Below, in pieces: positions 3,670 to 63,493 of a stretch of DNA of 64,000 bases. This DNA comes from a virus. Lineage: Duplodnaviria > Heunggongvirae > Uroviricota > Caudoviricetes. The notes below the pieces were generated by a model, which saw nothing but the letters and a program-made list of their open reading frames with translations, ran no database searches and was not told the DNA's origin. The stretch is from the IMG/VR virus record IMGVR_UViG_3300033121_001080, positions 17,520 through 81,519 of that record. One strand, written 5' to 3'. The first letter of the stretch is position 1. Each line of letters begins with the position of its first letter. A program made the translations under genes and the position numbers.

Positions 3670-4074
3670 TTATCCCTTAAAATACGTTATTGATCGTGAC
3701 GGCGGAACAAACTCAGTAAATTTCGTGTTAATTCCAGTCGTAAATTTAGCTCTGTCTAAGATGTAAGTTTTAGACAACACAGGGAAATATTGCGGATTGT
3801 CGTGTGGGGTATTAGTACGAACAGACAAAAATTGAGCAATATCACGTTCATATTGATCAGCCCCGCTAGGCAATTGAGGTATAATTGTTGTGTCATAGAA
3901 TTTAATACTGGACGAGAACGTGACAGGATTATTCAAGAATGCATCAGTATATACAACCGCAGGATATCTAATTGTGGTTGGATCTGCTATAAATGATTGA
4001 TTCAAGTCAACCGGAGGTTCTGTAATCGTATTACCAGCCAATGAACTGGATAGTTCTTCTAGTGCTGTTGGCAT
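3670..4074 (-). CDS. hypothetical structural protein
   Basis: 134-aa ORF, end-to-start with flanking genes. Confidence 0.45.
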   Translation of the reverse strand: MPTALEELSSSLAGNTITEPPVDLNQSFIADPTTIRYPAVVYTDAFLNNPVTFSSSIKFYDTTIIPQLPSGADQYERDIAQFLSVRTNTPHDNPQYFPVLSKTYILDRAKFTTGINTKFTEFVPPSRSITYFKG

Positions 4075-5093
4075 TAACCATTTATCCTAAAGTAATAGTT
4101 GTTATCAAATTCATACGTGTATCCACCACTTATAACCTTAATCATAAGTTTGTAGTAACGGCGTGGGTACATCTTTTGTACTCTAAAGTTAAAGTAGTTT
4201 CCGTCTGCATCTACACTAATCTTTGAGTAATCGTCAAACGGAACAATTACTTCATTTGACTTTAAATCCACGATAGAATAATAAGATGAAGATGGTAAGT
4301 ATGAATTATTCCACTCAACAAAAGTACTACTAAATGTTTTGAGTGGGTATTGCTTTCTTGCTACCAAATCAACTCGAACAACTTCATTTGGATTATATAA
4401 CGGACGTAAATTTGACGGATACACTATTAAACCAGAACTGACGGATGCTGACATCGAGGAGGTGTCTCGTGAAGAATCATCCCATTTAGCAATTAACGTA
4501 GGAGAAAATACAGTATGTGTATCTTTAGAAAAGAATGAAATTTTTCCCTTGTTATACGAATCTACTTCTGATCCAGTTGGAAATCTAACCAAAAATCCAT
4601 TATTAGTTATTGTTCCCGATACCCAATTCAATATCATAGAAGTTACATCAAATGTAACGTCAGTTAATGGAGTTGTTAAAGTTGCGCTACTTGTTGGAGA
4701 TCCAGAAAATGTAGATCCAGAACTTCCCCAAAGAGATCCCGAATATCTATATACCCAAGTTGGTCCTTGCGATTCTTCTAGCATGTCTTGATAATAATAT
4801 CCCTGACCCTCAATCCAGCTTTCGCTAATTGGCATTAGTTGAACAACTTGATTTCTAAGTAATCGTTCTCCATTAGCAACAAACAATTTTAAATCAAACA
4901 CAGAATTTTGAGAAATGGTACCATTAGCTATACTAGCTGAAATTGTGTCGATATCAAATTGAATCAAAGATCGAATAGATTTCGTCCCCAATTCATTCTT
5001 ACCCACTTCTAAAATTTCATCCAATCCAGTCTCTCTTGATATAAATTCTTGATAGATACTGGCGTCTTGAGTTGGAAAATAAAATTGTCTCAT
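4074..5093 (-). CDS. baseplate wedge-associated protein (gpI/gp7-position)
   Basis: 339-aa ORF immediately downstream of the baseplate-J-like gene. Confidence 0.45.
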   Translation of the reverse strand: MRQFYFPTQDASIYQEFISRETGLDEILEVGKNELGTKSIRSLIQFDIDTISASIANGTISQNSVFDLKLFVANGERLLRNQVVQLMPISESWIEGQGYYYQDMLEESQGPTWVYRYSGSLWGSSGSTFSGSPTSSATLTTPLTDVTFDVTSMILNWVSGTITNNGFLVRFPTGSEVDSYNKGKISFFSKDTHTVFSPTLIAKWDDSSRDTSSMSASVSSGLIVYPSNLRPLYNPNEVVRVDLVARKQYPLKTFSSTFVEWNNSYLPSSSYYSIVDLKSNEVIVPFDDYSKISVDADGNYFNFRVQKMYPRRYYKLMIKVISGGYTYEFDNNYYFRING

Positions 5094-10930: not shown

Positions 10931-11511
10931 ATCTTGTTACCTCTTAAATTATAATTTCCAAATCGTATCATATACGTAAATACGGTAACTCCATTGCCAT
11001 CATAAATAGGATGGTTGTACTTTTCCGGATAAAATGCTGCCAAAACTCCTCCCGGCCCAACCAAATGTGCGCCTGCTAAAATTCCAGATTTAGTTATATA
11101 TACTCCATTTACAACTTTACCTGAGAATTCCTTGATTGTTTTGTTTAATATTTCAGAGTTTCGTTGTAAATTCTGAATCATTATAGAATCCTGAAGTGTT
11201 TCGTCTGACAAAAATGTATCAACATCATACACTCCATGAGATTCTAACGTCGATTTACTGAACTGATATTTACCGAAGTATGTTTGTTTTCCATACGTGG
11301 TAATAGCGTGTGAATTGTTACTACTTTCCAACTTAGCGATTGCCTTTAAATATTCCTCGTAATTTCCTTTGTATTTCAATTGTTTCAATGTCTTTGTTTT
11401 CTTGTGTACAACGTGAACTTCTTCTTTTTTGTTCACTGGTTCTACTAATGCTTTGATATTACACGCTAATAAAATACCTGTCAGTAACAGTACTTTATTT
11501 AATGTTTTCAT
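10927..11511 (-). CDS. lipoprotein, possible peptidoglycan-active (lysozyme/transglycosylase-like) protein
   Basis: 194 aa. Signal plus lipobox LLACN. Weak resemblance to the SLT/lysozyme Glu-Ser motif (KLESS...TYGKQTYFGKYQF). Confidence 0.35.
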   Translation of the reverse strand: MKTLNKVLLLTGILLACNIKALVEPVNKKEEVHVVHKKTKTLKQLKYKGNYEEYLKAIAKLESSNNSHAITTYGKQTYFGKYQFSKSTLESHGVYDVDTFLSDETLQDSIMIQNLQRNSEILNKTIKEFSGKVVNGVYITKSGILAGAHLVGPGGVLAAFYPEKYNHPIYDGNGVTVFTYMIRFGNYNLRGNKI

Positions 11512-12578
11512 AATAGATGTGGATGGGCCTCTATTAAACCGGACGAAGTAATTTTTACAAACTTAGCTTTCTTTCGATATTCTGCTAATGTACTTGCCCC
11601 GACATAACTCATGGACGACTTAATACCATCAGTTAGATCATCAATAATTGATTGAACCGGTCCTTTGGCTTCAATTATTTTAGATGCACCTTCTACATGC
11701 TCTGCTACTCCTTTGTGTTTAAGTTTAGTCGTTGCTGACGCCATTCCGCGATAAATTTTCATATTCTTGTTATATGGCCATTTACCTGCTACTAATGTAT
11801 CTCCCGGCGCTTCGTCAGTTCCTGCAAATAAACTACCGCACATAACGGTAGATGCTCCAGCGGCTAAAGCCTTTGCTGCATCGCCGGGGTATCTAATACC
11901 TCCATCTGATATAACCGGCACAGTTGCTACTTCCATTACATCAAAGATAGACTGTAATTGTGGTACTCCAATACCAGTTCTGATGCGAGTTTCACATACA
12001 GAACCACCTCCTACACCTACTCGGAGAGCGTCTGCTCCCCATTCCTGCAAATCTAGTGCTGCATCTGCGGTTGCAATTGATCCTGCTACAATGTCAAAGT
12101 TATATTCACCTTTGAGTTCTAGAAGCGAAGTAATTGCATTCTTAACGTATATATGATGCCCGTGTGCTACATCAATAACCAACACGTTTGCTCCTGCGGA
12201 CAGTAAAGAGCGGGCAGTTACAATGAGTTCTGAATTTCCGCCATTTGCCCCAATTGCTGCGGCGATAACTTCATTATTAATATCGGTATCTTCTTCTAAT
12301 TCATCAAAAACATTTTGCATGTATTCTTTAACTGTGGATATTGCTTGCATCTGTTCTTGAATCAATCTAAATCTATGAACGATTCCTACACCACCAGCCA
12401 TCCACATTGCGATGGCCATTTTAGAATCACATACTGTATCCATCGGGGCTGCAACCAACGGATTTTGAATCGGGAATCGTCGAGTAAACTGAGTTGCTAA
12501 TTGTATATCTGATCTTGACGAAATATCAGAATATGAAGGAACTATTTGTACATCATCAAACGTTAACGTTTCTTTCAT
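11508..12578 (-). CDS. GMP reductase / IMP dehydrogenase family protein (GuaC-like, no CBS domain)
   Basis: 356 aa. N-terminal LTFDDVQIVP. Catalytic Cys loop VGVGGGSVCETRIRTGIGVPQ. ISDGGIRYPGD...VMCGS matches the IMPDH/GMPR TIM-barrel. Confidence 0.8.
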   Translation of the reverse strand: MKETLTFDDVQIVPSYSDISSRSDIQLATQFTRRFPIQNPLVAAPMDTVCDSKMAIAMWMAGGVGIVHRFRLIQEQMQAISTVKEYMQNVFDELEEDTDINNEVIAAAIGANGGNSELIVTARSLLSAGANVLVIDVAHGHHIYVKNAITSLLELKGEYNFDIVAGSIATADAALDLQEWGADALRVGVGGGSVCETRIRTGIGVPQLQSIFDVMEVATVPVISDGGIRYPGDAAKALAAGASTVMCGSLFAGTDEAPGDTLVAGKWPYNKNMKIYRGMASATTKLKHKGVAEHVEGASKIIEAKGPVQSIIDDLTDGIKSSMSYVGASTLAEYRKKAKFVKITSSGLIEAHPHLL

Positions 12579-12584
12579 ATAACC

Positions 12585-13250
12585 TCACTTAATTGTTTCA
12601 TAAAGTGCATTTTGTTTTTCTTGACGATCTATATCTTTAAGATGAATGAGAGCGAATTCTTCTTCGGCTGGGAGTGCTGCTATTATTTTTGCTCCAACAA
12701 TGCGCTCATGAACTGCGGATTCCCACTTGATCTCCGGAGAATTTCTATATATTCGACCTTGCCAATCTGGCCACATTACTCTATCGTGTTCATCAACTTT
12801 CCATTCCCACTTAGCTATGTGTGTTGGAGTTAAACCAGTTACTTTATTAACTCTTGGAACCATGAACAAATCTACAGTTTGATTATTTTCTATAATATAA
12901 TGTAAATTTAACAATAAATTATCTGCAAGAATTTCATCAGCATCTATTTGAAATATATAATCTCCAGTACACAAACTATTTAAATAATTTTTGTGAGCCG
13001 CAAAATCTTTTTCAAATTTACGTTGTGATACTTTACAATATGATGAATTGGCAGAATGGTTTAGTATTTGTAGTTTTGATACCAATTGAAGATCGGTAGA
13101 AAAATCATCTAACACTACAATTTCATATTCTTCTTTGTCACATCTGTCGCTTCCTAATATCGTATGTCCGATGAACCAACTTAATTGAGATGATAACTTC
13201 TCAAAATATTCACCTTCATTATGTGTCGTTATTGCAAACGATATCTTCAT
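12585..13250 (-). CDS. family-2 (GT-A) glycosyltransferase-like protein
   Basis: 221 aa. N-terminal ISFAITTHNEGEYFEKL and VVLDDFSTD (DxD-type) motifs. Confidence 0.55.
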   Translation of the reverse strand: MKISFAITTHNEGEYFEKLSSQLSWFIGHTILGSDRCDKEEYEIVVLDDFSTDLQLVSKLQILNHSANSSYCKVSQRKFEKDFAAHKNYLNSLCTGDYIFQIDADEILADNLLLNLHYIIENNQTVDLFMVPRVNKVTGLTPTHIAKWEWKVDEHDRVMWPDWQGRIYRNSPEIKWESAVHERIVGAKIIAALPAEEEFALIHLKDIDRQEKQNALYETIK

Positions 13251-17170: not shown

Positions 17171-17477
17171 ATATCCTCAAGGTTAAGTTAAACTTACTAC
17201 TATGGACTAGGAGGGAGTTGAACCCTCGTCCGAGACACACTACTAAAATATGCTTCTACACGGTTAGAGAATTTTTTAAGTTATCGATAATGCGAAGGAA
17301 TATTCTCAACCCGCACATTGTCTATCTGTTGTGGCCAATGTAAATCCACAGAAACGATTTACATTCATTCTTCACTTGATCGCTACAGGAGAGTGTGAAT
17401 TATCTCCAGAGGACTTGCTAATTACGCAGCAAGAGCGAGAGGTGCGTTTGCACTTAAAACTTTAAAACTGGTCGTGG
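17171..17477 (-). ncRNA. candidate small stable RNA / structured leader with tRNA-like T-arm minihelix
   Basis: 307-bp gap with no ORF. Contains GGAC-GAGGG-TTCAACT-CCCTC-CTAGTCC (a T-arm plus acceptor-like helix) on the minus strand. Confidence 0.25.
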
Positions 17478-17774
17478 TCAGTTTCCAACCATCCGTGCTA
17501 CAATATTTTTTCGTACTCCCGTCGAATCCGGTCTAGCCCGTTTATTCTTATTACGTTCTACTTGTTCTCTAACACACTTATCTACATGACTCTTAATTCT
17601 TTGAACTTTAGGTAAATGCTCCATAACAGTCAATTCATGGAGACTTGTTGGCTCAAAATGGATTTTGCAAATTGGGCATGACATATCCAACATGTCATTG
17701 TCATCAATATCTTCAATATTTGGAACTTTCATATTTGGTATATCTTTCCATGGAGTGTATGTTTCAAACTTCAT
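17478..17774 (-). CDS. hypothetical Zn-finger protein
   Basis: 98 aa. MSCPICKIHF. Confidence 0.45.
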   Translation of the reverse strand: MKFETYTPWKDIPNMKVPNIEDIDDNDMLDMSCPICKIHFEPTSLHELTVMEHLPKVQRIKSHVDKCVREQVERNKNKRARPDSTGVRKNIVARMVGN

Positions 17775-20240: not shown

Positions 20241-20313
20241 TGCTAACGGCGAGAATTGAACTCGCTTCACAAGTTTTAGAGACTCAGGCACAGAACCATT
20301 ATACCACGTTAGC
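20241..20313 (-). tRNA. tRNA with anticodon CUA (amber-suppressor type; Thr-tRNA paralog)
   Basis: Perfect 7-bp acceptor GCTAACG/CGTTAGC. T-arm GCGAG-TTCAATT-CTCGC. Anticodon stem TGAGT/ACTTG with loop C-U-CUA-A-A. D- and T-arms are near-identical to tRNA-Thr(GGT) at 22540. Confidence 0.55.
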
Positions 20314-20912: not shown

Positions 20913-21131
20913 TTACATGACAATTTCGTCAAAATACGCTTTATTGTTTTCACGTAAATACCCACTTCCTGTACAATTTGAACATTTTTTATCTTCCCGC
21001 CATTCTATCGATGGGAATGTTCCATACTCAATTATTCCATCGGTTGTAACATTAAGAACTGGCATATTATAAGATGGGAGAGTTTTTCGGCCCTCCCCCT
21101 TACATCTAGGACACAGCTTTACTATCATCAT
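20913..21131 (-). CDS. hypothetical Zn-ribbon protein
   Basis: 72 aa. CPRCKGEG...CSNCTGSG. Confidence 0.4.
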   Translation of the reverse strand: MMIVKLCPRCKGEGRKTLPSYNMPVLNVTTDGIIEYGTFPSIEWREDKKCSNCTGSGYLRENNKAYFDEIVM

Positions 21132-21795
21132 TTTCTAGTTCCGATTTCGGTGGAAGAAACTCTGTCTCATTAATATCAAGAATTCTGACATTATTCCACT
21201 TGACCGATCTGTGCATGTGGCCGCAGTACAGTCTAGGACGGCCTAGATTGTTCCACAGATGCTCTATACGCTGCGCTGAAACGTCTTCCCAGTCTCGGGG
21301 CAGACTCCAGCTTTCGCGCCGTATAGGGGTAAAGTTGTAGTCTATTGCAATTTTTGGTGGTGCATGAGTAACCAAAATATCAATTTTTTTGCCGCAATTC
21401 AACAATTTATTGACATCTTCCTCTGTCACTCGTTCATCTGGAAACCAGTCAATTTCCTTTGTTCTCCAGTACCGATCTACAGACTCACCACCACCAATAA
21501 ATCCAATTGTCCATCCATCAATTTCCATGACCGTTCCTCTCGGTACATAGAATAGATTTGGCTTTATTTCCTTTATTTCAGTAACACCACGAATCAATGG
21601 AAAATGTTCATGATTTCCATCAATAAAATAAACCGGATTCGGAAAATTCTGTGGAAAGTACTGAATGTTTTGAGGATACCACCCAAAATCTCCAACCTGA
21701 ATAAATGTCATGTCGGACGGAAGTTCCACTCTTTTTGGTAGTTTCTCGAAAAATTCAAACTCTCCGTGAATATCTCCGACAAAACAGATGCTCAT
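21106..21795 (-). CDS. calcineurin-like metallophosphoesterase (Ser/Thr phosphatase / 2',3'-cyclic phosphodiesterase-type)
   Basis: 229 aa. Motifs GDIHGEF, VGDFG, GNHEHF, and a second His pair (HAPP, GHMH). Confidence 0.75.
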   Translation of the reverse strand: MSICFVGDIHGEFEFFEKLPKRVELPSDMTFIQVGDFGWYPQNIQYFPQNFPNPVYFIDGNHEHFPLIRGVTEIKEIKPNLFYVPRGTVMEIDGWTIGFIGGGESVDRYWRTKEIDWFPDERVTEEDVNKLLNCGKKIDILVTHAPPKIAIDYNFTPIRRESWSLPRDWEDVSAQRIEHLWNNLGRPRLYCGHMHRSVKWNNVRILDINETEFLPPKSELENDDSKAVS

Positions 21796-24999: not shown

Positions 25000-25039
25000 G
25001 TTAGTAGGGCTGAGAATATACCCGTGGTGATTGATCTTT

Positions 25040-25960
25040 AAGAAGATTATCTAACCAGACTCCAAAGTCTAGTCGTTCCTCCAATTTCCACTCTCGCAAG
25101 AGAGTAATCAACCATAGCGGCGTTTTTTAAAGTCTCTGCATTGAGACTGTCGCGTCATGCTACTCAACCTTCGATCTACCGTTGACCTTGCGGGCCATAC
25201 ATGGTGCTACCCATTACGTGCGACCTCCGATTAAAGATCCTAGACCTTGGGAGTTTTGGATCTGCTATATTCACCTTGCGGTGTACAGCTTTTCGCTACT
25301 TTCACATCACGCCGAGAGCGTCTTTCCGTTTTTTATATATGGGATTTGAACCCACAATTCGATAGTTTTCAAGACTATTGCCTTTACCAATTTGGCTAAT
25401 ATACCTCTGAAGAAGTGCGCTCTCAGTTGTTCCAATATCTTTTGGATATCGAAATGCAACACTCCTCGTTTGAATTTCCCTTGCGAGTACTCTTCGGTTT
25501 TTCATGACCAATGCGTTTTTAAGGCGCACCAACCAATCAAACTCCCACGCAGCCCTTATCTGCAAAAACTCGAACCGTGTGATTATCGCTTGTCTATACT
25601 CTGTCGAATGTTGGTTTAATTGGAGCCCAGCACCACCTGTCAGTCTTCTATAGCCTGTTTTCCTTACGGAACATCGACTACAGTTTTTTCCAATTACACT
25701 CTTCCAATCTATCGCCATGTTGTGCATGACGCTTTTCTCTTTCGAGAAAACAGACTGCGACTTGCTTGGTTTCTCCTCCCTTGTAAGGGGGGCGGGATAG
25801 GTGTAGGCCCATTCCCTTTTATGCATATTGCTATGCATTGTGCAGTCCAAGCACTGTTTACATCCTATTTCAAAGAGCATGATGGGCAGTCGTTGTTTTG
25901 GCCACCCATCATTTGTTCTTACAAGCTACTATACTTACTGGATTCTGTCAAGTCCTGCAA
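25040..25960. other. ~0.9-kb GC-richer region without a convincing ORF; contains a tRNA-like T-arm (25322-25398) and may encode structured RNA
   Basis: Only odd-composition ORFs overlap it (a 192-aa Arg/Cys/Trp-rich frame). Inverted-repeat and GC-rich hairpin runs, e.g. GTAAGGGGGGCGGGATAGG. Lies between tRNA-Gln and the PEP-CTERM gene. Confidence 0.3.
25322..25398 (-). tRNA. tRNA-like element (aberrant acceptor; anticodon-arm ATAGT-CTTGAAA-ACTAT would read UGA)
   Basis: T-arm GTGGG-TTCAAAT-CCCAT and a D-arm-like GCC...GGC. The acceptor strands do not pair cleanly. Confidence 0.3.
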
Positions 25961-25961
25961 T

Positions 25962-26717
25962 CTATGCAGATGCTAACTGCTTGCGACGTTTGAAGAATCC
26001 CATTCCGCCCATACTAACTAAACCAGTTGCGATCAATGACATACTAGCTGGTTCTGGTGTTACGGTGGTACAATTTGCGACACGATCTGTACCGGGAATG
26101 TTACCTGTCCAACACTCAGTTGCTTTTCCATCTATTCCATTGATACCACGAAGTACGATATCCGATGAATCTGGATTCCACGCGCCACTGATCTTGAACT
26201 TGAACGTGACCCAATCTGCGTTATTTGTACTTAATGCTGTACATGGGTTGACATATAATGGGACTGAAGGAAGCTGTCCCGGTTCTGCACACCCACTTGC
26301 TATGCCGTAAGTAGGATTCTTTGATCCGAGAGTCTGAACTCTAAAATCTACACCAAATCCAACTCTAGCATTATTTGCTAATCGCCAAGCATTTGCTCCC
26401 TGTCCTACCAATGGACCACTTGTAGACAATGATCCAAGAACAACGCTTGTTCCACTAGTATTGTAAAATCCGATGCCATTAAAAATTGTTCCGGCATACG
26501 TACTAGTACCATCTGATGCTGCTGTATTACCTGACAGGTTCCACAATCTAACAATTACGTCCTGTCCTGTAACATTAATTGAAACTGCTGCACAGGTGGA
26601 GAATGTATCTCCACCACAAACTTTGTAGTTTTTGAACCCATCGGCTCTCGCCACTGATGGTAAAACTGCCAACATTCCTAAAACCGACGCGAACCTAGCA
26701 ACCTTTGTGTATTTCAT
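25962..26717 (-). CDS. secreted PEP-CTERM-anchored protein
   Basis: 251 aa. N-terminal signal MKYTKVARFASVLGMLAVLPSVARA. C-terminal VTPEPASMSLIATGLVSMGGMGFFKRRKQLASA, i.e. PEP + TM helix + basic tail. GC visibly above background. Confidence 0.7.
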   Translation of the reverse strand: MKYTKVARFASVLGMLAVLPSVARADGFKNYKVCGGDTFSTCAAVSINVTGQDVIVRLWNLSGNTAASDGTSTYAGTIFNGIGFYNTSGTSVVLGSLSTSGPLVGQGANAWRLANNARVGFGVDFRVQTLGSKNPTYGIASGCAEPGQLPSVPLYVNPCTALSTNNADWVTFKFKISGAWNPDSSDIVLRGINGIDGKATECWTGNIPGTDRVANCTTVTPEPASMSLIATGLVSMGGMGFFKRRKQLASA

Positions 26718-27723: not shown

Positions 27724-28329
27724 CTACATTCCTGCTTCGAGATCATGGAACTGATTTGAACATTGCCACATTGCAATACCAGCAGCCGCAGCTACATTAA
27801 ATGATCGCAACACTCCAAACTGATAAATAGATACAGTAAAATACTTCTTTCTAAATGACTCGGGGAATCCATTTGATTCATTACCAAAAACTAAACAAAG
27901 TGTCTTTCCAGCCGGAGCTAATTTAGTCCATCGAATAGAATCAATAAAGTTTCCGCCATGTTCAAGCAAAACTGGATAGAGATTTTCCTTCTCACAAAAC
28001 TCTACGAACTTATCATGATCGACATTACCGTCTGCATCCAATCCTTCAACACGTTCAATTGGAAGATAGTTCTGTGCGCCAACAAGGCTTCGACGATCAA
28101 TCTTACGACGACCGAATACATAGAACTTTTCTACTCCAAGAAGTGCGGCTGAACGGGCCATCATACCAACGTTCAAGTCACCTTCAACATTCAAGGCACA
28201 CACACGAAAAGGAAGTGCATGGCTTTCCTGAATCTTCTTCAATTCCTCAACGGACAAATGCTTATATTCGTCCTTGACATTGAAGTTATTTGAATTCTCT
28301 TCGAAAACGTCCTTAAACATTGAAGTCAA
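27724..28329 (-). CDS. SpoU/TrmH-family RNA 2'-O-methyltransferase (SPOUT)
   Basis: 201 aa. Motif 1 NVGMMARSAALLG, motif 2 LVFGNESNGF, motif 3 LRSFNVAAAAGIAMWQ. Confidence 0.75.
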   Translation of the reverse strand: MTSMFKDVFEENSNNFNVKDEYKHLSVEELKKIQESHALPFRVCALNVEGDLNVGMMARSAALLGVEKFYVFGRRKIDRRSLVGAQNYLPIERVEGLDADGNVDHDKFVEFCEKENLYPVLLEHGGNFIDSIRWTKLAPAGKTLCLVFGNESNGFPESFRKKYFTVSIYQFGVLRSFNVAAAAGIAMWQCSNQFHDLEAGM

Positions 28330-60168: not shown

Positions 60169-60629
60169 AACTCTCCTCGTTCTAATCAATGTAACAAAGT
60201 TGTATTGATTACGCAAGACCCAATTTACTTTTTTTCCGAAATTTTTTGAAATACCCACCGAAAACATCAAAATCTCTACCATATAATTACTGTTTAATTG
60301 TAAAGATATTCTAGCAGAATTTACCTATCCCATGCAAGCTCGTGGACTAGGCCGGAGTCCCATTGACACGGCAACTTTTTCCTAGTCACTATTAATTATC
60401 GGCCCTTTTTGCCGCGTCATTATGACACGGTTTAAATGGCACGAGCTTTGCAACATCGCAAATCCTGTGCCAAGCGGCGTGGCATAAGATTTGCTCTAGA
60501 GCACGTCGAGGCTATAGAAGTATGAAGAAAGTTTATCAATATTGGGTATTGACCTTCCCTCTCCCCTGTTGTATTATACTCTCGCCTGAAGTGAACGGGC
60601 CAAGTAAGAACCAAAGCAAGTGAGGATGT

Positions 60630-60845
60630 ATGAAGCTCGATTCCGCCACCACGACGCTGAACGTTTCCGAGGTTGACGCGGGCTCGCTGGAAGTGGTGAA
60701 GGTTCAGGAAGTGATGAAGGAAGGTCAGTGGGCGAAGTATGTTGTGCGGTTCACGGTGGACGGTGTGGAGATGGAAGGCACTCAGCAGGGGTGGCAGCAG
60801 GCCGATAGCTGGGACGATCAGATCACCGATTGCTGGACGGCCTGA
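60630..60845 (+). CDS. small GC-rich hypothetical protein (paralog of 61169..61546 N-terminus)
   Basis: 71 aa. LEVVKVQEVMKEGQWAKYVVRFTVDGVEMEGTQQGW. RBS GAGG. Followed by a strong terminator. Confidence 0.55.
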   Translation: MKLDSATTTLNVSEVDAGSLEVVKVQEVMKEGQWAKYVVRFTVDGVEMEGTQQGWQQADSWDDQITDCWTA

Positions 60846-60864
60846 CCGCTCCCCGCAAAATTCA

Positions 60865-60897
60865 AGCCAGAGGCTAACCCCTCTGGCTTTTTTGTGT
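60865..60897 (+). terminator. rho-independent terminator (plus strand)
   Basis: AGCCAGAGG-ctaacc-CCTCTGGCT followed by TTTTTTGTGTT. Confidence 0.75.
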
Positions 60898-61168
60898 TGC
60901 TACTTGGGCCGTGTCATTTTGACACACCGATGACAGTTTGTATCTTTTCCACATGGCATGAATAATGCTCTAAACTTTTTTTTGCAAATGTTGTGCCACA
61001 CTTGCCTATTTGGTTAAAGCACGCGCCATGGCATGACATTTGCGGAATCTGCAATAATTGTACCATGGAATTATGAAGAAAGTTTATATTGACTATTCTA
61101 TTGTGTTGTTGTATTATTGTCTTGCGCGAAGTAAGCGCCACGACAACCCCGCAGCAAGCGAGAATCCT

Positions 61169-61546
61169 ATGCTTAACCTGACTGGCATTCCCTCAGAGGT
61201 TGCGCTGGCCGAAGTGACTGAGTTTGACCGGGGGGAAGTGCTGGAAGTGCTTGAGGCCGGACAGTGGTATGCCTATGAATGCACCTTCCGCTATGGTGAT
61301 GTGGTGTGCAGCGGAACCATTCAAGGCGAGGGGCGGAACGGTGAGTATAACGATATTATCACCGATGTTACTCCCCTTCCCCGCAATGAGCAGGACCGGC
61401 ATGTGCCGGAATTGGATTGTGTGTTGGCGTACAGCGATAACTACGAGCGTCATCTGTGCCAGTTTGACGGTTCGTTGTACGTTGTCGAGATGCGCCGCAA
61501 CCATGGTGACAAGCACTTTAATGTCGTCAGCGGTTGGGCGCTCTAA
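61169..61546 (+). CDS. GC-rich hypothetical protein (paralog of 60630..60845 with extra C-terminal domain)
   Basis: 125 aa from MLNLTG.... VLEVLEAGQWYAYECTFRYGDVVCSGTIQGEG. The in-frame upstream MKKVYIDYSIVLLYYCLA... leader (from 61073) could instead be part of the protein. Confidence 0.5.
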   Translation: MLNLTGIPSEVALAEVTEFDRGEVLEVLEAGQWYAYECTFRYGDVVCSGTIQGEGRNGEYNDIITDVTPLPRNEQDRHVPELDCVLAYSDNYERHLCQFDGSLYVVEMRRNHGDKHFNVVSGWAL

Positions 61547-61605
61547 CCACTAGACAGGGGAGGGGAATCGCCCCTCCCCACTTGACGTTAGCTTGAGGTG
61601 TCAAA

Positions 61606-61866
61606 ATGTCTCGCTCTTGGAATCCCGACACGCTGGAATTCTCCCGTCCCTGTCCTCATTGCTCCACTGAGGTGACTCACACCGTTTCTTATTCCCCCAC
61701 TTGGGATGACAACGGTGTCGGTGCCGAGGATGTAGAGTGCAGCGTGGATACCTGCGAGGAATGCGGCAAGGAATGCACTCTCCCCACCGAACAGGCGCAG
61801 GAACTTGCCGACAAGGAAGTGCAAGGCGCCGCAGAATTTCGTCGGGATTGGCGGAATCAATACTGA
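61606..61866 (+). CDS. small Zn-ribbon protein
   Basis: 86 aa. CPHCSTE...C-x-VDTCEECGKEC. RBS GAGGTG. A terminator hairpin follows at 61886-61920. Confidence 0.55.
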   Translation: MSRSWNPDTLEFSRPCPHCSTEVTHTVSYSPTWDDNGVGAEDVECSVDTCEECGKECTLPTEQAQELADKEVQGAAEFRRDWRNQY

Positions 61867-61885
61867 CAGCCGAAGAAAGCAAGAA

Positions 61886-61920
61886 CCGGGCCAGAACATC
61901 GGCCCGGTTTTCTTTGTATG
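61886..61920 (+). terminator. rho-independent terminator (plus strand)
   Basis: CCGGGCC-agaacatc-GGCCCGG followed by TTTTCTTTGTATG. Confidence 0.65.
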
Positions 61921-61997
61921 TCTGTGGTATTCATGAAGTTACCTTGGACTCTATTGGTTAGAATAGAATCCAAGGTATTGTATTGTGTGCGGTACTA

Positions 61998-62309
61998 TCA
62001 CCGCTGCATGGTGCCTTCCAGATCGTTGCGCCGTTCCTCGCGTTCAGCCTCTCGTGCCATCTTGAGGCACAGACGGAAACGCTTCCGATCCCCCTTTGGA
62101 GTAAGCGGGAAAAAATACGCTACGCTCTTGGCAGGCCGATACTTGTCAAGTCTCACACTCGCATCGAGTGAGAAATCATTGTACCCGATTTCAAAACACA
62201 GACCACCGTTGAAACGTTTGGTGCCATATCGGTTATGTTTGCTTTTTCCGATCTGCTCGCCATCTTCGATTTTCTTGGCAACGGACATCCAGAAATCAGA
62301 TTCCTTCAT
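61998..62309 (-). CDS. hypothetical protein
   Basis: 103 aa. Last gene of a three-gene minus-strand operon. AGGTAAC RBS. Confidence 0.5.
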   Translation of the reverse strand: MKESDFWMSVAKKIEDGEQIGKSKHNRYGTKRFNGGLCFEIGYNDFSLDASVRLDKYRPAKSVAYFFPLTPKGDRKRFRLCLKMAREAEREERRNDLEGTMQR

Positions 62310-62318
62310 GATAGTTAC

Positions 62319-62495
62319 CTGTCCCCCACAATATAGCGGTTGAAGTAGTCGAGTGAACCCTCGTTGCCAATAGCATTGAGGGAATTGATATCAGCCTGAG
62401 ACAAATCGGACGGAATGGGATCAGCAGCAAGGCATTTCTCACATGTCTTGAAGTTTTCGTACACAGGCTGACCGCACTTGCAAAGCTTTGCCACT
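62319..62495 (-). CDS. small Zn-ribbon protein (59 aa)
   Basis: MAKLCKCGQPVYENFKTCEKCLAAD.... Found by manual translation, below the ORF-track cutoff. Confidence 0.4.
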
Positions 62496-62503
62496 GTGTT
62501 CTC

Positions 62504-62686
62504 CTAGCGTGAGTATTTACGAATATACGCCCAAAGCTTCTCCGGGTCAACCCCCAACACGTAGACTCCCACCTCGCACGATTCCACTACCAGATCGTCG
62601 GCTAGCATCTTTCGTGCCAGAATGGGGTCCACCGACAGAACTTCATACTTTGGTGCGTATCGAACAATCACCTTTGCTGCTGCCAT
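62504..62686 (-). CDS. small hypothetical protein
   Basis: 60 aa. First gene of the minus-strand operon. Confidence 0.45.
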   Translation of the reverse strand: MAAAKVIVRYAPKYEVLSVDPILARKMLADDLVVESCEVGVYVLGVDPEKLWAYIRKYSR

Positions 62687-62834
62687 ACAATGCCTCTTGA
62701 GTGAAGTGGAGCCTCTTTAGCTCTAATCGGAGTGGTCAGAAGCCACCGGTAAAACCCGGCGAAAGAACTCTTTTCTAACAATGCCTAGGCATTCGTCATA
62801 TCTGGCTTGCAGACACTCTCCACATGCTGAATAC

Positions 62835-62863
62835 AACCTAACAGCCTCGATTGCGCCTGTCAA
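62835..62863 (-). promoter_or_regulatory. sigma70-like promoter (minus strand) TTGACA-N17-TAGGTT
   Basis: Reverse complement reads TTGACAggcgcaatcgaggctgtTAGGTT. Divergent from the plus-strand promoter at 62911. Confidence 0.45.
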
Positions 62864-62910
62864 GTGAAAGTTTCTTCATAATCAATGATTGTAACAATTA
62901 GGTAACATAC

Positions 62911-62938
62911 TTGACTTTCGGTGGGAATGATGTAGATT
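62911..62938 (+). promoter_or_regulatory. sigma70-like promoter (plus strand) TTGACT-N16-TAGATT
   Basis: ttgactttcggtgggaatgatgtagatt, 25 bp upstream of the ATG at 62964. Confidence 0.55.
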
Positions 62939-62963
62939 AGAGGTAACTCAAACGGAGTAGTAT

Positions 62964-63236
62964 ATGGCCGATTTCTGTAATTCACTCATGGATGACCGCA
63001 GCCGACTCGAACAGGAAAACGAGGCGCTGCGTCAGGAGATTGCCGATCTCAGGCGTTCCATCGTGGACCTTGCTGTGGGGTCCGTCATGGACATGGGCAA
63101 CAGCGAATGTCTACGTGTCCAGATTGCCACGCTGACCCGTGAACGTGACGAGGCCAGAGCCGCTCTTGCCAATAACCCACATGGATGTTATTATCAGGAG
63201 CATCGTTGCATCTTCTGTGGAAAGGCTGACGAATAA
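62964..63236 (+). CDS. coiled-coil protein with C-terminal CxxC
   Basis: 90 aa. RLEQENEALRQEIADLRRSIVDL...CIFCGK. RBS GGAG. Confidence 0.55.
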   Translation: MADFCNSLMDDRSRLEQENEALRQEIADLRRSIVDLAVGSVMDMGNSECLRVQIATLTRERDEARAALANNPHGCYYQEHRCIFCGKADE

Positions 63237-63493
63237 TGTACAATTCAATGGATACCGCTCCCAGAGACGGTACATGCGTATTGCTCAATCGCAATCCTCC
63301 TCCCGAAGTTCTTGCAAAGATTAGACTTGGAGAGGTTCCGCCTGTGATTGGTTATTGGGGATGCCCAAACCAATTGAACGTGAGCAAGCCAAGATGGAGA
63401 TACGCACATGATTCCACGGTAATTAGCAGCGAGCGTTTCATATATGGGTGGCTTCCGCTTCCGAAACCATTCAAGCATCACACAGCACCATGA
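63236..63493 (+). CDS. hypothetical protein
   Basis: 85 aa. Start overlaps the upstream stop (TAATG). Pro-rich. Confidence 0.5.
   Translation: MYNSMDTAPRDGTCVLLNRNPPPEVLAKIRLGEVPPVIGYWGCPNQLNVSKPRWRYAHDSTVISSERFIYGWLPLPKPFKHHTAP

What the first reader, a model, noticed from the sequence alone, without database searches (positions are those of the whole stretch)
25962..26717. Phage-encoded PEP-CTERM (exosortase-sorted) secreted protein
The ORF has a classical Sec signal peptide and a textbook PEP-CTERM tail: VTPEPA, then a 20-residue hydrophobic helix, then KRRKQ. It therefore needs a host exosortase (EpsH/XrtA). This pins the host to an exosortase-bearing Gram-negative lineage, not typical enterics. 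It also implies the phage decorates the host envelope or EPS layer, for example for superinfection exclusion or biofilm interaction. The gene and the adjacent ~0.9 kb are noticeably GC-richer than the phage backbone, consistent with capture from the host.
Basis: partly seen in the sequence, partly recalled or inferred. Interest (0 to 1): 0.75.

Follow-up and report, generated by a model that had tools for sequence, protein, structure and literature searches.

The report
Phage gene for exosortase-sorted surface protein
A large tRNA-rich phage carries an old, still intact copy of a Gemmatimonadales cell-surface protein that needs the bacterium's exosortase sorting machinery, which is a rare phage accessory gene and a clue to its host; the "GC-rich DNA" beside it is a GOLLD giant RNA, not captured host DNA.

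Summary
The ORF is real: 25962-26717, minus strand, 251 aa. It has a Sec-type signal peptide (cleavage after ARA25), a confidently modelled beta-sandwich domain with six conserved Cys, and a C-terminal PEP-CTERM tail. The tail passes TIGR02595 (22.4 bits, cutoff 16) but not Pfam PF07589. The PEP motif is near-invariant in 120 homologues.

Every named or genome-placed homologue is from Gemmatimonadota. In about 35 Gemmatimonadales genomes the orthologue sits in a fixed cassette just upstream of the XrtA-system polysaccharide deacetylase and FemAB genes. The phage copy is about 70% identical and nests inside this bacterial tree, so the gene moved from bacterium to phage.

GC3 is 32%, like the phage (29±8%) and unlike the orthologue (86%). 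The excess GC lies at codon position 2, so it reflects amino-acid composition. The adjacent 0.9 kb is a GOLLD RNA (179 bits) with an embedded tRNA-like element, inside a 46-tRNA plus tmRNA island.

The host is probably Gemmatimonadales but this is unproven, because the GC gap is at least 24 points. The function is inferred, not shown: an EPS-associated surface protein supplied during infection. An isolated acidobacterial jumbo phage, Tunturi_5 (gp179), also encodes an unannotated PEP-CTERM protein.

The parts
25962..26717 (-). Complete ORF, 251 aa plus TAG stop. It is the phage copy of a Gemmatimonadales PEP-CTERM surface-protein family.
   Evidence: ORF listed. 136 homologues, the best non-identical ones at about 70% identity with E about 1e-104. 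It keeps 69 of the 75 positions that are at least 90% conserved in the family. Two independent assemblies reproduce it in the same phage context at 99.9% identity.
26643..26717 (-). Sec-type signal peptide, residues 1-25, with predicted cleavage after A-R-A.
   Evidence: The n, h and c regions were measured. The AxA positions A23 and A25 are conserved in 120 homologues. AF2 pLDDT is below 60 here, as expected for a cleaved leader.
26067..26642 (-). Mature domain, residues 26-217: a beta-sandwich with six conserved Cys (C34, C42, C143, C159, C202, C216).
25965..26066 (-). PEP-CTERM sorting tail, residues 218-251. PEP is at 26049-26057, followed by an uncharged helix and KRRKQ. The TIGR02595 match covers 25977-26060.
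   Evidence: TIGR02595 22.4 bits, above the cutoff of 16. P221, E222 and P223 are invariant in 21 sequences and at least 90% conserved in 120. 77 of 120 family members hit TIGR02595.
25007..25467 (-). GOLLD RNA, conserved 3' half, directly downstream of the ORF.
   Evidence: Rfam RF02032: 179.3 bits against a gathering score of 150, E 9e-49, model positions 1-416 of 416.
25468..25961 (-). Probable variable 5' half of the GOLLD RNA. The 192-aa ORF called at 25302-25880 is probably spurious: its 3' part overlaps the GOLLD match and the tRNA-like element, but the ORF itself was never searched.
   Evidence: 44.5% GC. The RNA fold gives -142.9 kcal/mol, z = -3.33, and 0 of 100 shuffles fold as well. 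GOLLD RNAs exceed 800 nt and have a less conserved 5' region (PMC12286853). The 5' boundary was not mapped.
25331..25405 (-). tRNA-like element (ARAGORN: Ser, anticodon UGA, 75 nt) embedded in the GOLLD linker.
   Evidence: ARAGORN. Rfam tRNA 51.3 bits. It lies in the insertion between GOLLD model positions about 108 and 109. tRNAs in the GOLLD linker have been reported (PMC12286853).
26914..26988 (-). tRNA-Glu(UUC), immediately upstream on the same strand. A sigma-70-like site lies at 27036-27009. The ORF probably sits in a tRNA/mRNA polycistron.
   Evidence: The promoter-like site is a consensus match only, and fewer sites were found than in shuffles.

Best explanation
The ORF is an intact accessory gene that looks selectively maintained, in a large T4-like-baseplate myovirus. 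It lies inside that phage's tRNA/tmRNA/GOLLD island.

Origin. The gene was captured long ago from the XrtA-type exopolysaccharide locus of a Gemmatimonadales bacterium. Only this one gene of the bacterial cassette was taken.

Proposed mechanism.
1. The gene is transcribed with the surrounding tRNA genes (inferred).
2. The precursor is exported by host Sec, and the leader is cut after ARA25 (inferred from sequence).
3. The C-terminal helix holds the protein in the inner membrane. The host exosortase then recognises the PEP motif, removes the tail and passes the roughly 190-residue disulfide-bonded beta-sandwich to the cell surface or EPS layer. This is inferred from the defining properties of PEP-CTERM/exosortase systems and from the genomic setting of the orthologues.
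4. In the bacterium, the orthologue is probably a sigma-54-controlled, EPS-associated surface protein. This is by analogy with PepA of Aquincola and Zoogloea, which increases bound EPS and decreases released EPS.
5. The phage copy keeps up or over-supplies this protein once host transcription fails. That preserves or thickens the EPS-bound surface layer of the infected cell. The likely pay-offs are blocking secondary adsorption (superinfection exclusion, or loss of progeny on debris) and/or keeping the infected cell inside a floc of susceptible neighbours. This last step is speculative.

Host. The phage must infect an exosortase-bearing bacterium, most parsimoniously a Gemmatimonadales member.
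For: Real gene and real motif.

Phage context:
- gp25 and gp6-like baseplate genes, RNA ligases, PTH2, a SpoU methylase and HNH endonucleases.
- At least 597 IMG/VR relatives of the baseplate protein.
- The closest isolates are myoviruses.
- Two independent assemblies give the same ORF context.

Donor lineage:
- All 73 genome loci are Gemmatimonadota, and the named hits are Gemmatimonadales.
- The phage protein lies 11 nodes deep in a midpoint-rooted NJ tree, sister to the P0002-P0012 clade, on a long branch of 0.185 against a median of 0.08.

Exosortase link:
- The orthologue is fixed between HpsJ-like membrane proteins and the XrtA-system deacetylase (TIGR03006, 340 bits, cutoff 276) plus FemAB (TIGR03019, 297 bits, cutoff 260). 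Sigma-54 regulator and kinase genes lie nearby. This holds in about 35 genomes.
- Exosortase genes (TIGR02602, 150 bits, cutoff 105.55) occur in four Gemmatimonadales loci.
- A sigma-54-like -24/-12 element lies about 50 nt upstream of the p166-PEP gene pair in L004, and at a matching position relative to the PEP gene in 14-16 of 29 loci.

Purifying selection in the phage:
- GC3 is 32% against 86% in the orthologue.
- Only 31% of identical residues share a codon.
- Even so, 69 of 75 conserved positions survive, along with all six Cys, the AxA site and the PEP tail.

Functional analogy: PepA (PMC9850573).

Precedents:
- An isolated jumbo phage, Tunturi_5, carries a signal-peptide plus PEP-CTERM protein, gp179 (TIGR02595 19.2 bits, cutoff 16).
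- A large GC gap is not disqualifying. 49-kb stretches of Xanthomonas phage Xoo-sp13 and Agrobacterium phage Atu_ph07 are 40.0% and 37.9% GC. Their hosts are about 64% and 59% GC (my own knowledge).
Against: - There are no expression, processing or localisation data. Every mechanistic step after 'the gene is intact and conserved' is inference.
- Pfam PF07589 is below its gathering score.
- The window encodes no exosortase, so the protein depends wholly on an unidentified host.
- The window is 38% GC against 61-74% for every Gemmatimonadales locus.
- All 80 sampled IMG/VR relatives of the baseplate protein are 28-44% GC. The nearest isolates infect Microcystis and Flavobacterium. The present host could therefore be another phylum.
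- No other phage copy of this family was found in INPHARED, IMG/VR or the 5.8-billion-protein set. Conservation across phages cannot be shown.
- The mature domain has no informative structural relative, so its biochemical role is unknown.
- The phage's benefit is a guess among several.
Confidence: 0.72

Rival explanations
1. The gene is as described, but the phage's present host is not Gemmatimonadales. Either the gene crossed from a Gemmatimonadales donor into a phage lineage that infects another exosortase-bearing bacterium (for example a floc-forming Burkholderiales or a cyanobacterium), or the phage has since changed host.
For: - The GC gap is at least 24 points.
- All sampled relatives of the baseplate protein are low-GC.
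- The nearest isolates infect Microcystis and Flavobacterium.
- One contig, L164, joins this phage at window position 63453 to 62-69% GC urtABC DNA of Burkholderiales type (97% to a JGI protein, 92% to Pelomonas).
- Four of the six substitutions at family-conserved positions fall in the sorting tail. That could reflect adaptation to a different exosortase.
Against: - Every cellular homologue that could be placed is from Gemmatimonadota, and none comes from Burkholderiales or cyanobacteria.
- Gene capture normally happens inside the host.
- Of the 18 contigs that carry P0121, L164 was the only one of the three examined to leave the phage sequence; L163 and L165 follow the window (99.6-100%). 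The L164 junction falls in the middle of urtA with no att-like feature, as expected of an assembly chimera.
- Isolated jumbo myoviruses have comparable GC gaps.
- A 46-tRNA set covers all 20 amino acids, with 16 U34 anticodons. That fits an AT-rich phage in a GC-rich host.
Confidence: 0.3
2. The phage protein is a decoy rather than a functional surface protein. Mass-produced PEP-CTERM substrate saturates or blocks the host exosortase. That stops normal decoration of the EPS, loosens the matrix and helps progeny escape.
For: - Only the substrate gene was captured, without its cassette partners.
- The tail carries the few non-consensus residues: V224A, L229I, G235S, R243K.
- The gene is removed from its sigma-54 control.
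Against: - The mature domain is conserved as strictly as in the bacteria: only one change among its family-conserved positions, and all six Cys kept. A mere tail decoy would not need this.
- The tail substitutions are conservative and still pass TIGR02595.
Confidence: 0.1
3. The gene is a neutral passenger, a decaying relic of an old transduction-like capture with no present function.
For: - It is the only phage copy known.
- It lies in a hypervariable island rich in HNH endonucleases.
Against: - Synonymous sites are fully ameliorated, yet the reading frame is intact.
- 69 of 75 conserved positions, the signal peptide, the Cys pattern and the sorting tail are all kept.
- A relic of that age would be degraded.
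Confidence: 0.06
4. Artefact: a chance PEP plus hydrophobic run, or bacterial DNA mis-assembled into a phage contig.
For: Pfam PF07589 is below threshold. One chimeric-looking contig exists elsewhere in this phage.
Against: - Full-length homology at E about 1e-100 with a conserved motif.
- The pattern is absent from shuffles.
- GC3 is phage-like.
- The ORF is flanked by phage tRNAs and GOLLD on the same strand, and two other assemblies reproduce the arrangement.
Confidence: 0.02

Closest known systems
Chromosomal orthologues in Gemmatimonadales: an unnamed family of about 250 aa, annotated by NCBI only as 'PEP-CTERM sorting domain-containing protein'.
   Same: Same length and architecture: signal peptide, six-Cys beta-sandwich and PEP-CTERM tail. 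Identity is 45-70% over the full length. The phage protein nests inside their tree.
   Different: The bacterial genes are 66% GC with GC3 of 86%. They sit in a fixed cassette: OMP, p331, HpsJ-like, p166, this gene, XrtA deacetylase, FemAB. A sigma-54-like promoter lies upstream. The phage gene stands alone between a tRNA and a GOLLD RNA, has phage codon usage and lies on a long branch.
PepA, the flocculation-associated PEP-CTERM protein of Zoogloea and Aquincola (NF033554; PMC9850573).
   Same: A small secreted PEP-CTERM protein encoded next to exosortase/EPS genes under sigma-54 control. This is the experimentally supported model for what such proteins do: they bind EPS to cells and promote flocs.
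   Different: The phage protein does not match NF033554. Only 15 of 120 family members give weak hits (best E 9e-6, no score reported; curated cutoff 80 bits). The phylum differs, and this copy is phage-borne. 'Works like PepA' is an analogy, not membership.
gp179 of Tunturiibacter phage Tunturi_5 (XOB77622.1, PP885688.1), an isolated 309-kb myovirus of Acidobacteriota.
   Same: A phage-encoded protein of about 210 aa with an N-terminal signal peptide and a PEP-CTERM tail (TIGR02595 19.2 bits, cutoff 16). The phage is tRNA-rich, with 43 tRNAs, and comes from a phylum with exosortase systems.
   Different: The mature domain is unrelated, and only the tail aligns. That phage is 58% GC, matching its host. 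gp179 is annotated as hypothetical, and the describing paper does not mention PEP-CTERM.
Phage-encoded exported proteins that use host sorting machinery to alter the infected cell surface, for example T5 Llp and the Cor lipoproteins (my own knowledge, not tested here).
   Same: The concept is the same: a phage supplies a precursor with a host-type sorting signal, and the host machinery matures it at the envelope. The usual role is superinfection exclusion or receptor masking.
   Different: Those proteins use the lipoprotein (Lgt/LspA/Lol) route and are not recent host orthologues. Here the route would be Sec plus exosortase, and the protein is a captured host EPS-locus gene.
GOLLD RNA (Rfam RF02032), for the adjacent 0.9 kb.
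   Same: A full-length match to the conserved 3' half, location in a phage tRNA island, and a tRNA in the linker. All three are described features.
   Different: Nothing unusual was found. The 5' half was not compared with other GOLLD RNAs.

Membership tests
PEP-CTERM sorting domain (TIGR02595 / PF07589) | HMM score at or above the curated cutoff. | tested here: inconclusive
   TIGR02595 scores 22.4 bits against a cutoff of 16, which passes. PF07589 scores 13.4 bits against a gathering score of 20.7, which fails. NCBI names the orthologues P0053 and P0063 as PEP-CTERM proteins.
PEP-CTERM sorting domain (TIGR02595 / PF07589) | A Pro-Glu-Pro motif at the extreme C-terminus, then an uncharged transmembrane stretch, then a basic cluster. 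| tested here: met
   PEP at residues 221-223, 19 uncharged residues at 224-242, KRRK at 243-246, and the protein ends at 251. The motif is conserved at 90% or more in 120 homologues.
PEP-CTERM sorting domain (TIGR02595 / PF07589) | An N-terminal signal peptide, meaning the protein is exported before sorting. | tested here: met
   The n, h and c regions and the AxA site were found by inspection and alignment. No dedicated predictor was available.
PEP-CTERM sorting domain (TIGR02595 / PF07589) | The genome that expresses the protein encodes an exosortase (EpsH/Xrt). | tested here: inconclusive
   The window has no exosortase. The donor phylum has them: TIGR02602 at 150 bits against a cutoff of 105.55 in L047, with homologues in L058, L062 and L064. 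XrtA-system marker genes flank the orthologues. The actual host is not identified.
PEP-CTERM sorting domain (TIGR02595 / PF07589) | Exosortase-dependent cleavage and transfer of the protein. | not testable with these tools
   This needs expression with and without an exosortase, and mass spectrometry of the C-terminus.
Gemmatimonadales 250-aa PEP-CTERM family (unnamed) | Full-length sequence homology, including the six conserved Cys and the WNLSGN and GIGFYN blocks. | tested here: met
   E from 1e-104 to 1e-53, 45-70% identity, 88-100% coverage. 69 of 75 conserved positions are kept. The protein nests within the family tree.
Gemmatimonadales 250-aa PEP-CTERM family (unnamed) | Position in the XrtA EPS cassette, after p166 and before the XrtA deacetylase. 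| tested here: not met
   None of the other 14 cassette proteins has a match in the window. The phage copy lies between tRNA-Glu and GOLLD.
PepA flocculation-associated PEP-CTERM protein (NF033554) | HMM match over the mature domain at or above the 80-bit cutoff. | tested here: not met
   The phage protein gave no NF033554 hit at E up to 10. 15 of 120 relatives gave weak hits (best E 9e-6, no score reported; curated cutoff 80 bits).
GOLLD RNA (RF02032), for the adjacent region | Covariance-model score at or above the gathering score, in a phage or tRNA-island context. | tested here: met
   179.3 bits against 150, covering the full model. The match lies within an island of 46 tRNAs.

The most novel reading that the evidence does not exclude
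Phages can hijack the exosortase/PEP-CTERM pathway. On this reading, an uncultivated tRNA-rich large myovirus infects Gemmatimonadales, a phylum for which my literature searches turned up no described phage. It re-supplies a host EPS-locus surface protein to remodel the infected cell's matrix. A complete phage tRNA set plus tmRNA would bridge a gap of about 25-35 GC points to the host. With Tunturi_5 gp179, this would define a previously unnoticed class of phage accessory genes, exosortase-sorted 'surface morons', in soil, sludge and freshwater phyla.
Probability: 0.35. Interest if true: 0.7.

Novelty: new variant of a known kind. Interest (0 to 1): 0.55.

Why it matters
Exosortase/PEP-CTERM systems help make flocs and biofilm matrices in wastewater, soil and freshwater bacteria. 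Their biochemistry is still largely unproven.

A phage that has kept one such substrate under selection points to that protein as important at the cell surface during infection. It also offers a compact, portable test substrate for exosortase processing.

The gene is a rare single-gene host marker. Its family is confined to Gemmatimonadales, so it gives a testable host hypothesis for a large phage with 46 tRNAs, a tmRNA and a GOLLD RNA.

The result carries a methodological warning as well. Raised GC next to a gene in an AT-rich phage can come from a structured RNA or from amino-acid composition rather than from recent host capture.

Tried and rejected
- **Other phage copies.** tblastn of the protein against 50,697 phage records found nothing. 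A profile-guided scan of IMG/VR found nothing. The protein database holds only the identical cluster P0001; the next hit is at 70% identity.
- **Stop-codon recoding.** The ORF ends in TAG and the phage has a tRNA with a CUA anticodon. Recoding TAG lengthens ORFs no more than recoding TGA or TAA, and the major ORFs contain no in-frame TAG. Rejected. Read-through would add only 9 residues.
- **Recent capture judged from GC.** Rejected on GC3 and codon identity.
- **Independent host evidence.** The GC-rich module at 60.4-64 kb is made of ORFans. The high-GC DNA joined to it in contig L164 is Burkholderiales-type urtABC, and the join is probably an assembly chimera. Neither settles the host.
- **How common PEP-CTERM tails are in phages.** Tail-only tblastn with this protein's tail found Tunturi_5 gp179. 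A generic consensus tail found nothing, probably because of low-complexity masking. gp179 has no IMG/VR relatives.
- **Literature.** Searches for phage-encoded PEP-CTERM proteins found no report.
- **Syntenic relatives through the neighbouring SpoU gene.** Only one distant IMG/VR locus was found, and it has no PEP gene.
Full report
**1. The observation**

Its N-terminus is a standard Sec leader. It has three K/R in the first 8 residues, a 14-residue hydrophobic core with mean Kyte-Doolittle 2.05, and then A-R-A followed by D.

Its C-terminus reads TVTPEPA-SMSLIATGLVSMGGMGFF-KRRKQ-LASA. NCBIfam TIGR02595 (PEP_CTERM) matches residues 220-247 at 22.4 bits against a curated cutoff of 16. The shorter Pfam model PF07589 reaches only 13.4 bits against a gathering score of 20.7.

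The tail is not a chance pattern. It occurs in 1 of 304 open frames of the window and in 0 of 2909 frames from shuffled sequence.

P221, E222 and P223 are invariant in a 21-sequence alignment and at least 90% conserved in a 120-sequence alignment, together with the helix glycines and the RR pair. Of the 120 family members, 77 hit TIGR02595 on their own.

**2. The window is a phage**

- All 46 tRNA genes, which cover all 20 amino acids, plus a tmRNA and almost all ORFs lie on the minus strand.
- The window encodes gp25 and gp6-like baseplate wedge proteins, two RNA ligases, a cyclic-phosphate-processing receiver domain, peptidyl-tRNA hydrolase PTH2, a SpoU methylase, a metallophosphoesterase and several HNH endonucleases.
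- The baseplate protein has at least 597 relatives in IMG/VR.
- Its best matches among isolates are Microcystis phage Mel-JY01 (43%), a 484-kb uncultured huge phage (41%) and Flavobacterium phage immuto (40%).
- Two independent assemblies, one from JGI and one from Logan, reproduce the stretch tRNA-Gln / GOLLD / ORF / tRNA-Glu at 99.9% identity. The gene is therefore not a mis-assembly.

**3. What the gene is**

The protein has 136 homologues at E of 1e-3 or better. One cluster is identical and comes from the same phage. The next best hits are only about 70% identical.

Every hit that carries an organism name is from Gemmatimonadota. A scan of one genome for each of 185,579 species returned 73 loci, all of them Gemmatimonadota and mostly Gemmatimonadales MAGs. 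No phage record or IMG/VR contig encodes a relative.

About 35 of these genomes are 61-74% GC and share a fixed cassette:

- a sigma-54 response regulator, a histidine kinase and a VanZ-like gene on one strand;
- on the other strand, a 1030-aa outer-membrane beta-barrel, p331, an HpsJ-like membrane protein, its paralogue p166, this gene, the XrtA-system polysaccharide deacetylase (TIGR03006, 340 bits, cutoff 276), the FemAB-family XrtA-associated protein (TIGR03019, 297 bits, cutoff 260), DegT and further genes.

A sigma-54-type element, TGGCCCG-N4-5-TGC(T/A), lies about 50 nt upstream of p166 in L004 and at a matching position relative to the PEP gene in 14-16 of 29 loci.

Exosortase genes are present in four Gemmatimonadales loci, next to other PEP-CTERM tails (TIGR02602, 150 bits, cutoff 105.55).

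The bacterial orthologue is therefore a core part of an exosortase-type EPS locus. No curated family covers the mature domain; all NCBIfam hits are confined to the tail.

**4. Direction and age of the transfer**

- In a midpoint-rooted NJ tree the phage protein sits 11 nodes deep, sister to the P0002-P0012 clade, whose placed members (P0003, P0011) lie on high-GC bacterial contigs with the conserved cassette. Its terminal branch is 0.185, above the 90th percentile of 0.168. The gene therefore moved from bacterium to phage.
- Only this one gene of the cassette is in the window.
- The capture is old. The gene's GC3 is 31.7%, inside the phage distribution of 28.8±8.4%, while the closest orthologue has GC3 of 86%.
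- Of the 174 residues identical to that orthologue, only 31% use the same codon.
- Despite this, the phage protein keeps 69 of the 75 positions that are at least 90% conserved in the bacterial family. It also keeps the AxA site, all six Cys and the PEP tail. The six differences are mostly conservative (V224A, L229I, G235S, R243K), plus P108A and one in the leader.
- Together these results show long-term purifying selection within the phage.

**5. The GC argument and the adjacent 0.9 kb**

The ORF's overall GC is 43.8%, only about 1.5 SD above the other ORFs. The excess lies at codon position 2 (53% against 35±5%). This reflects a composition rich in Gly, Thr, Ser and Ala.

The adjacent segment is a GOLLD RNA. 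Rfam RF02032 matches 25007-25467 at 179 bits over the full model. A tRNA-like element is embedded in the linker at 25331-25405. The 494 nt between the GOLLD match and the ORF stop fold significantly better than shuffles (z = -3.3).

This fits published descriptions of GOLLD: longer than 800 nt, a variable 5' region, location in phage tRNA islands, and sometimes a tRNA in the linker (PMC12286853). The raised GC is therefore that of a structured RNA. Other tRNA-dense kilobases of the window show the same rise.

**6. Mechanism**

*Shown:*
- an intact, conserved gene in a phage, with export and sorting signals;
- orthologues embedded in XrtA-type loci.

*Inferred from the established properties of PEP-CTERM/exosortase systems:*
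- Sec export and leader cleavage;
- membrane retention by the C-terminal helix;
- exosortase cleavage at PEP and delivery of the protein to the surface or EPS.

*By analogy:*
- PepA of Aquincola and Zoogloea is sigma-54 dependent. When over-expressed it lowers soluble EPS, raises bound EPS and restores flocs (PMC9850573). The Gemmatimonadales cassette has the same regulatory flavour.

*Speculative:*
- I propose that the phage copy replaces or over-supplies this protein after host transcription declines.
- This would keep or tighten the EPS-bound layer, which could exclude secondary adsorption and/or hold the infected cell within a floc.

*Rival readings:*
- an exosortase decoy (about 0.1);
- a neutral relic (about 0.06);
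- an artefact (about 0.02).

**7. Host**

The donor is Gemmatimonadales, and I am confident of that. The present host is less certain.

*Against a Gemmatimonadales host:*
- the phage is 38% GC against 61-74% for the bacterial loci;
- all 80 sampled relatives of the baseplate protein are 28-44% GC;
- one contig, L164, joins the phage at window position 63453 to Burkholderiales-type urtABC DNA. Of the three P0121 contigs examined, the other two (L163, L165) follow the window instead, and the junction cuts urtA in mid-gene, so it is probably an assembly chimera.

*For a Gemmatimonadales host:*
- the family's strict taxonomic restriction;
- a complete tRNA complement with many U34 anticodons;
- isolated jumbo myoviruses with comparable gaps. 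Xoo-sp13 is 40.0% GC and Atu_ph07 is 37.9% GC over 49 kb. Their hosts are about 64% and 59% GC (my own knowledge).

I put a Gemmatimonadales host at roughly 0.6.

**8. Novelty**

Full-text searches found no report of phage-encoded PEP-CTERM proteins.

A tail-only tblastn did reveal one in an isolated phage. Tunturi_5 gp179 has a signal peptide and a PEP-CTERM tail (TIGR02595 19.2 bits, cutoff 16). It is annotated as hypothetical, and the paper describing the phage does not mention it.

The phenomenon is therefore real, recurrent and apparently undescribed. Conceptually it is a new route (exosortase) for a known kind of thing: phage accessory genes that encode exported proteins matured by host sorting machinery.

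**Verdict**

- Interest is moderate, at 0.55.

Noticed in passing
window 25007-25961 (-): GOLLD RNA (RF02032, 179 bits) lies directly downstream of the ORF. A 75-nt tRNA-like element is embedded in its linker at 25331-25405. It is called Ser(UGA) but lacks the long variable arm of a normal tRNA-Ser. The 192-aa ORF at 25302-25880 partly overlaps the GOLLD match and is probably spurious.
   Followed up: partly
window 17200-50122 (-): A very large translation island. It holds 46 tRNA genes covering all 20 amino acids (16 with U34 anticodons) and a tmRNA at 17200-17539 with tag ANAPLALAA. Interspersed are two RNA ligases, a cREC_REC domain, PTH2, a SpoU methylase (27724-28329), a metallophosphoesterase (21106-21795) and at least four HNH endonucleases.
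   Followed up: partly
window 20241-20313 (-): A tRNA with a CUA anticodon, so a potential amber suppressor (ARAGORN labels it 'Pyl'). The PEP-CTERM ORF and 6 other long ORFs end in TAG. Open-frame statistics gave no sign of TAG recoding. Read-through of the PEP ORF would add 9 residues.
   Followed up: partly
window ~60400-64000 (both strands): A compositionally foreign module of 48-52% GC, with GC3 of 57-76% in several small ORFs. It includes a tandem paralogous pair (60630-60845 and 61058-61546) and a lipobox/HExxH protein (63448-63891). There is no Rfam hit and no similarity to known phages. The 162-aa ORF is an ORFan, seen only in this phage.
   Followed up: partly
L164 (JGI 3300045396 contig), junction at window 63453: One of three examined contigs that carry this phage segment (18 were found in all) switches abruptly to 62-69% GC DNA. 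That DNA encodes a truncated UrtA plus UrtB/C/D of Burkholderiales type (92% identity to Pelomonas UrtC). It is probably an assembly chimera. If it were real, it would point to a different host or to a recombination event.
   Followed up: partly
L081 1961-2599 (+) = PP885688.1 125878-126516: Tunturiibacter phage Tunturi_5 gp179, annotated as a hypothetical protein, has a signal peptide and a PEP-CTERM tail that passes TIGR02595. This is an unannotated phage-encoded exosortase substrate in an isolated acidobacterial jumbo phage.
   Followed up: yes
L004-L046 (Gemmatimonadales loci), about 0.6 kb upstream of the PEP-family gene: A conserved sigma-54-like -24/-12 element, TGGCCCG-N4-5-TGC(T/A), lies upstream of the p166-PEP gene pair. 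p166 and the 141-161-aa protein before it are paralogous HpsJ-like four-helix membrane proteins. HpsJ is a family otherwise tied to cyanoexosortases.
   Followed up: partly
window 4074-5093 (-) and 12585-13250 (-): The 339-aa ORF next to the baseplate wedge gene has sub-threshold similarity to CBM96 and disaggregatase repeats, so it may be a polysaccharide-binding or depolymerase tail protein. A family-2 glycosyltransferase lies beside a GMP-reductase/IMPDH-like gene (11508-12578). Both may relate to an EPS-coated host.
   Followed up: no
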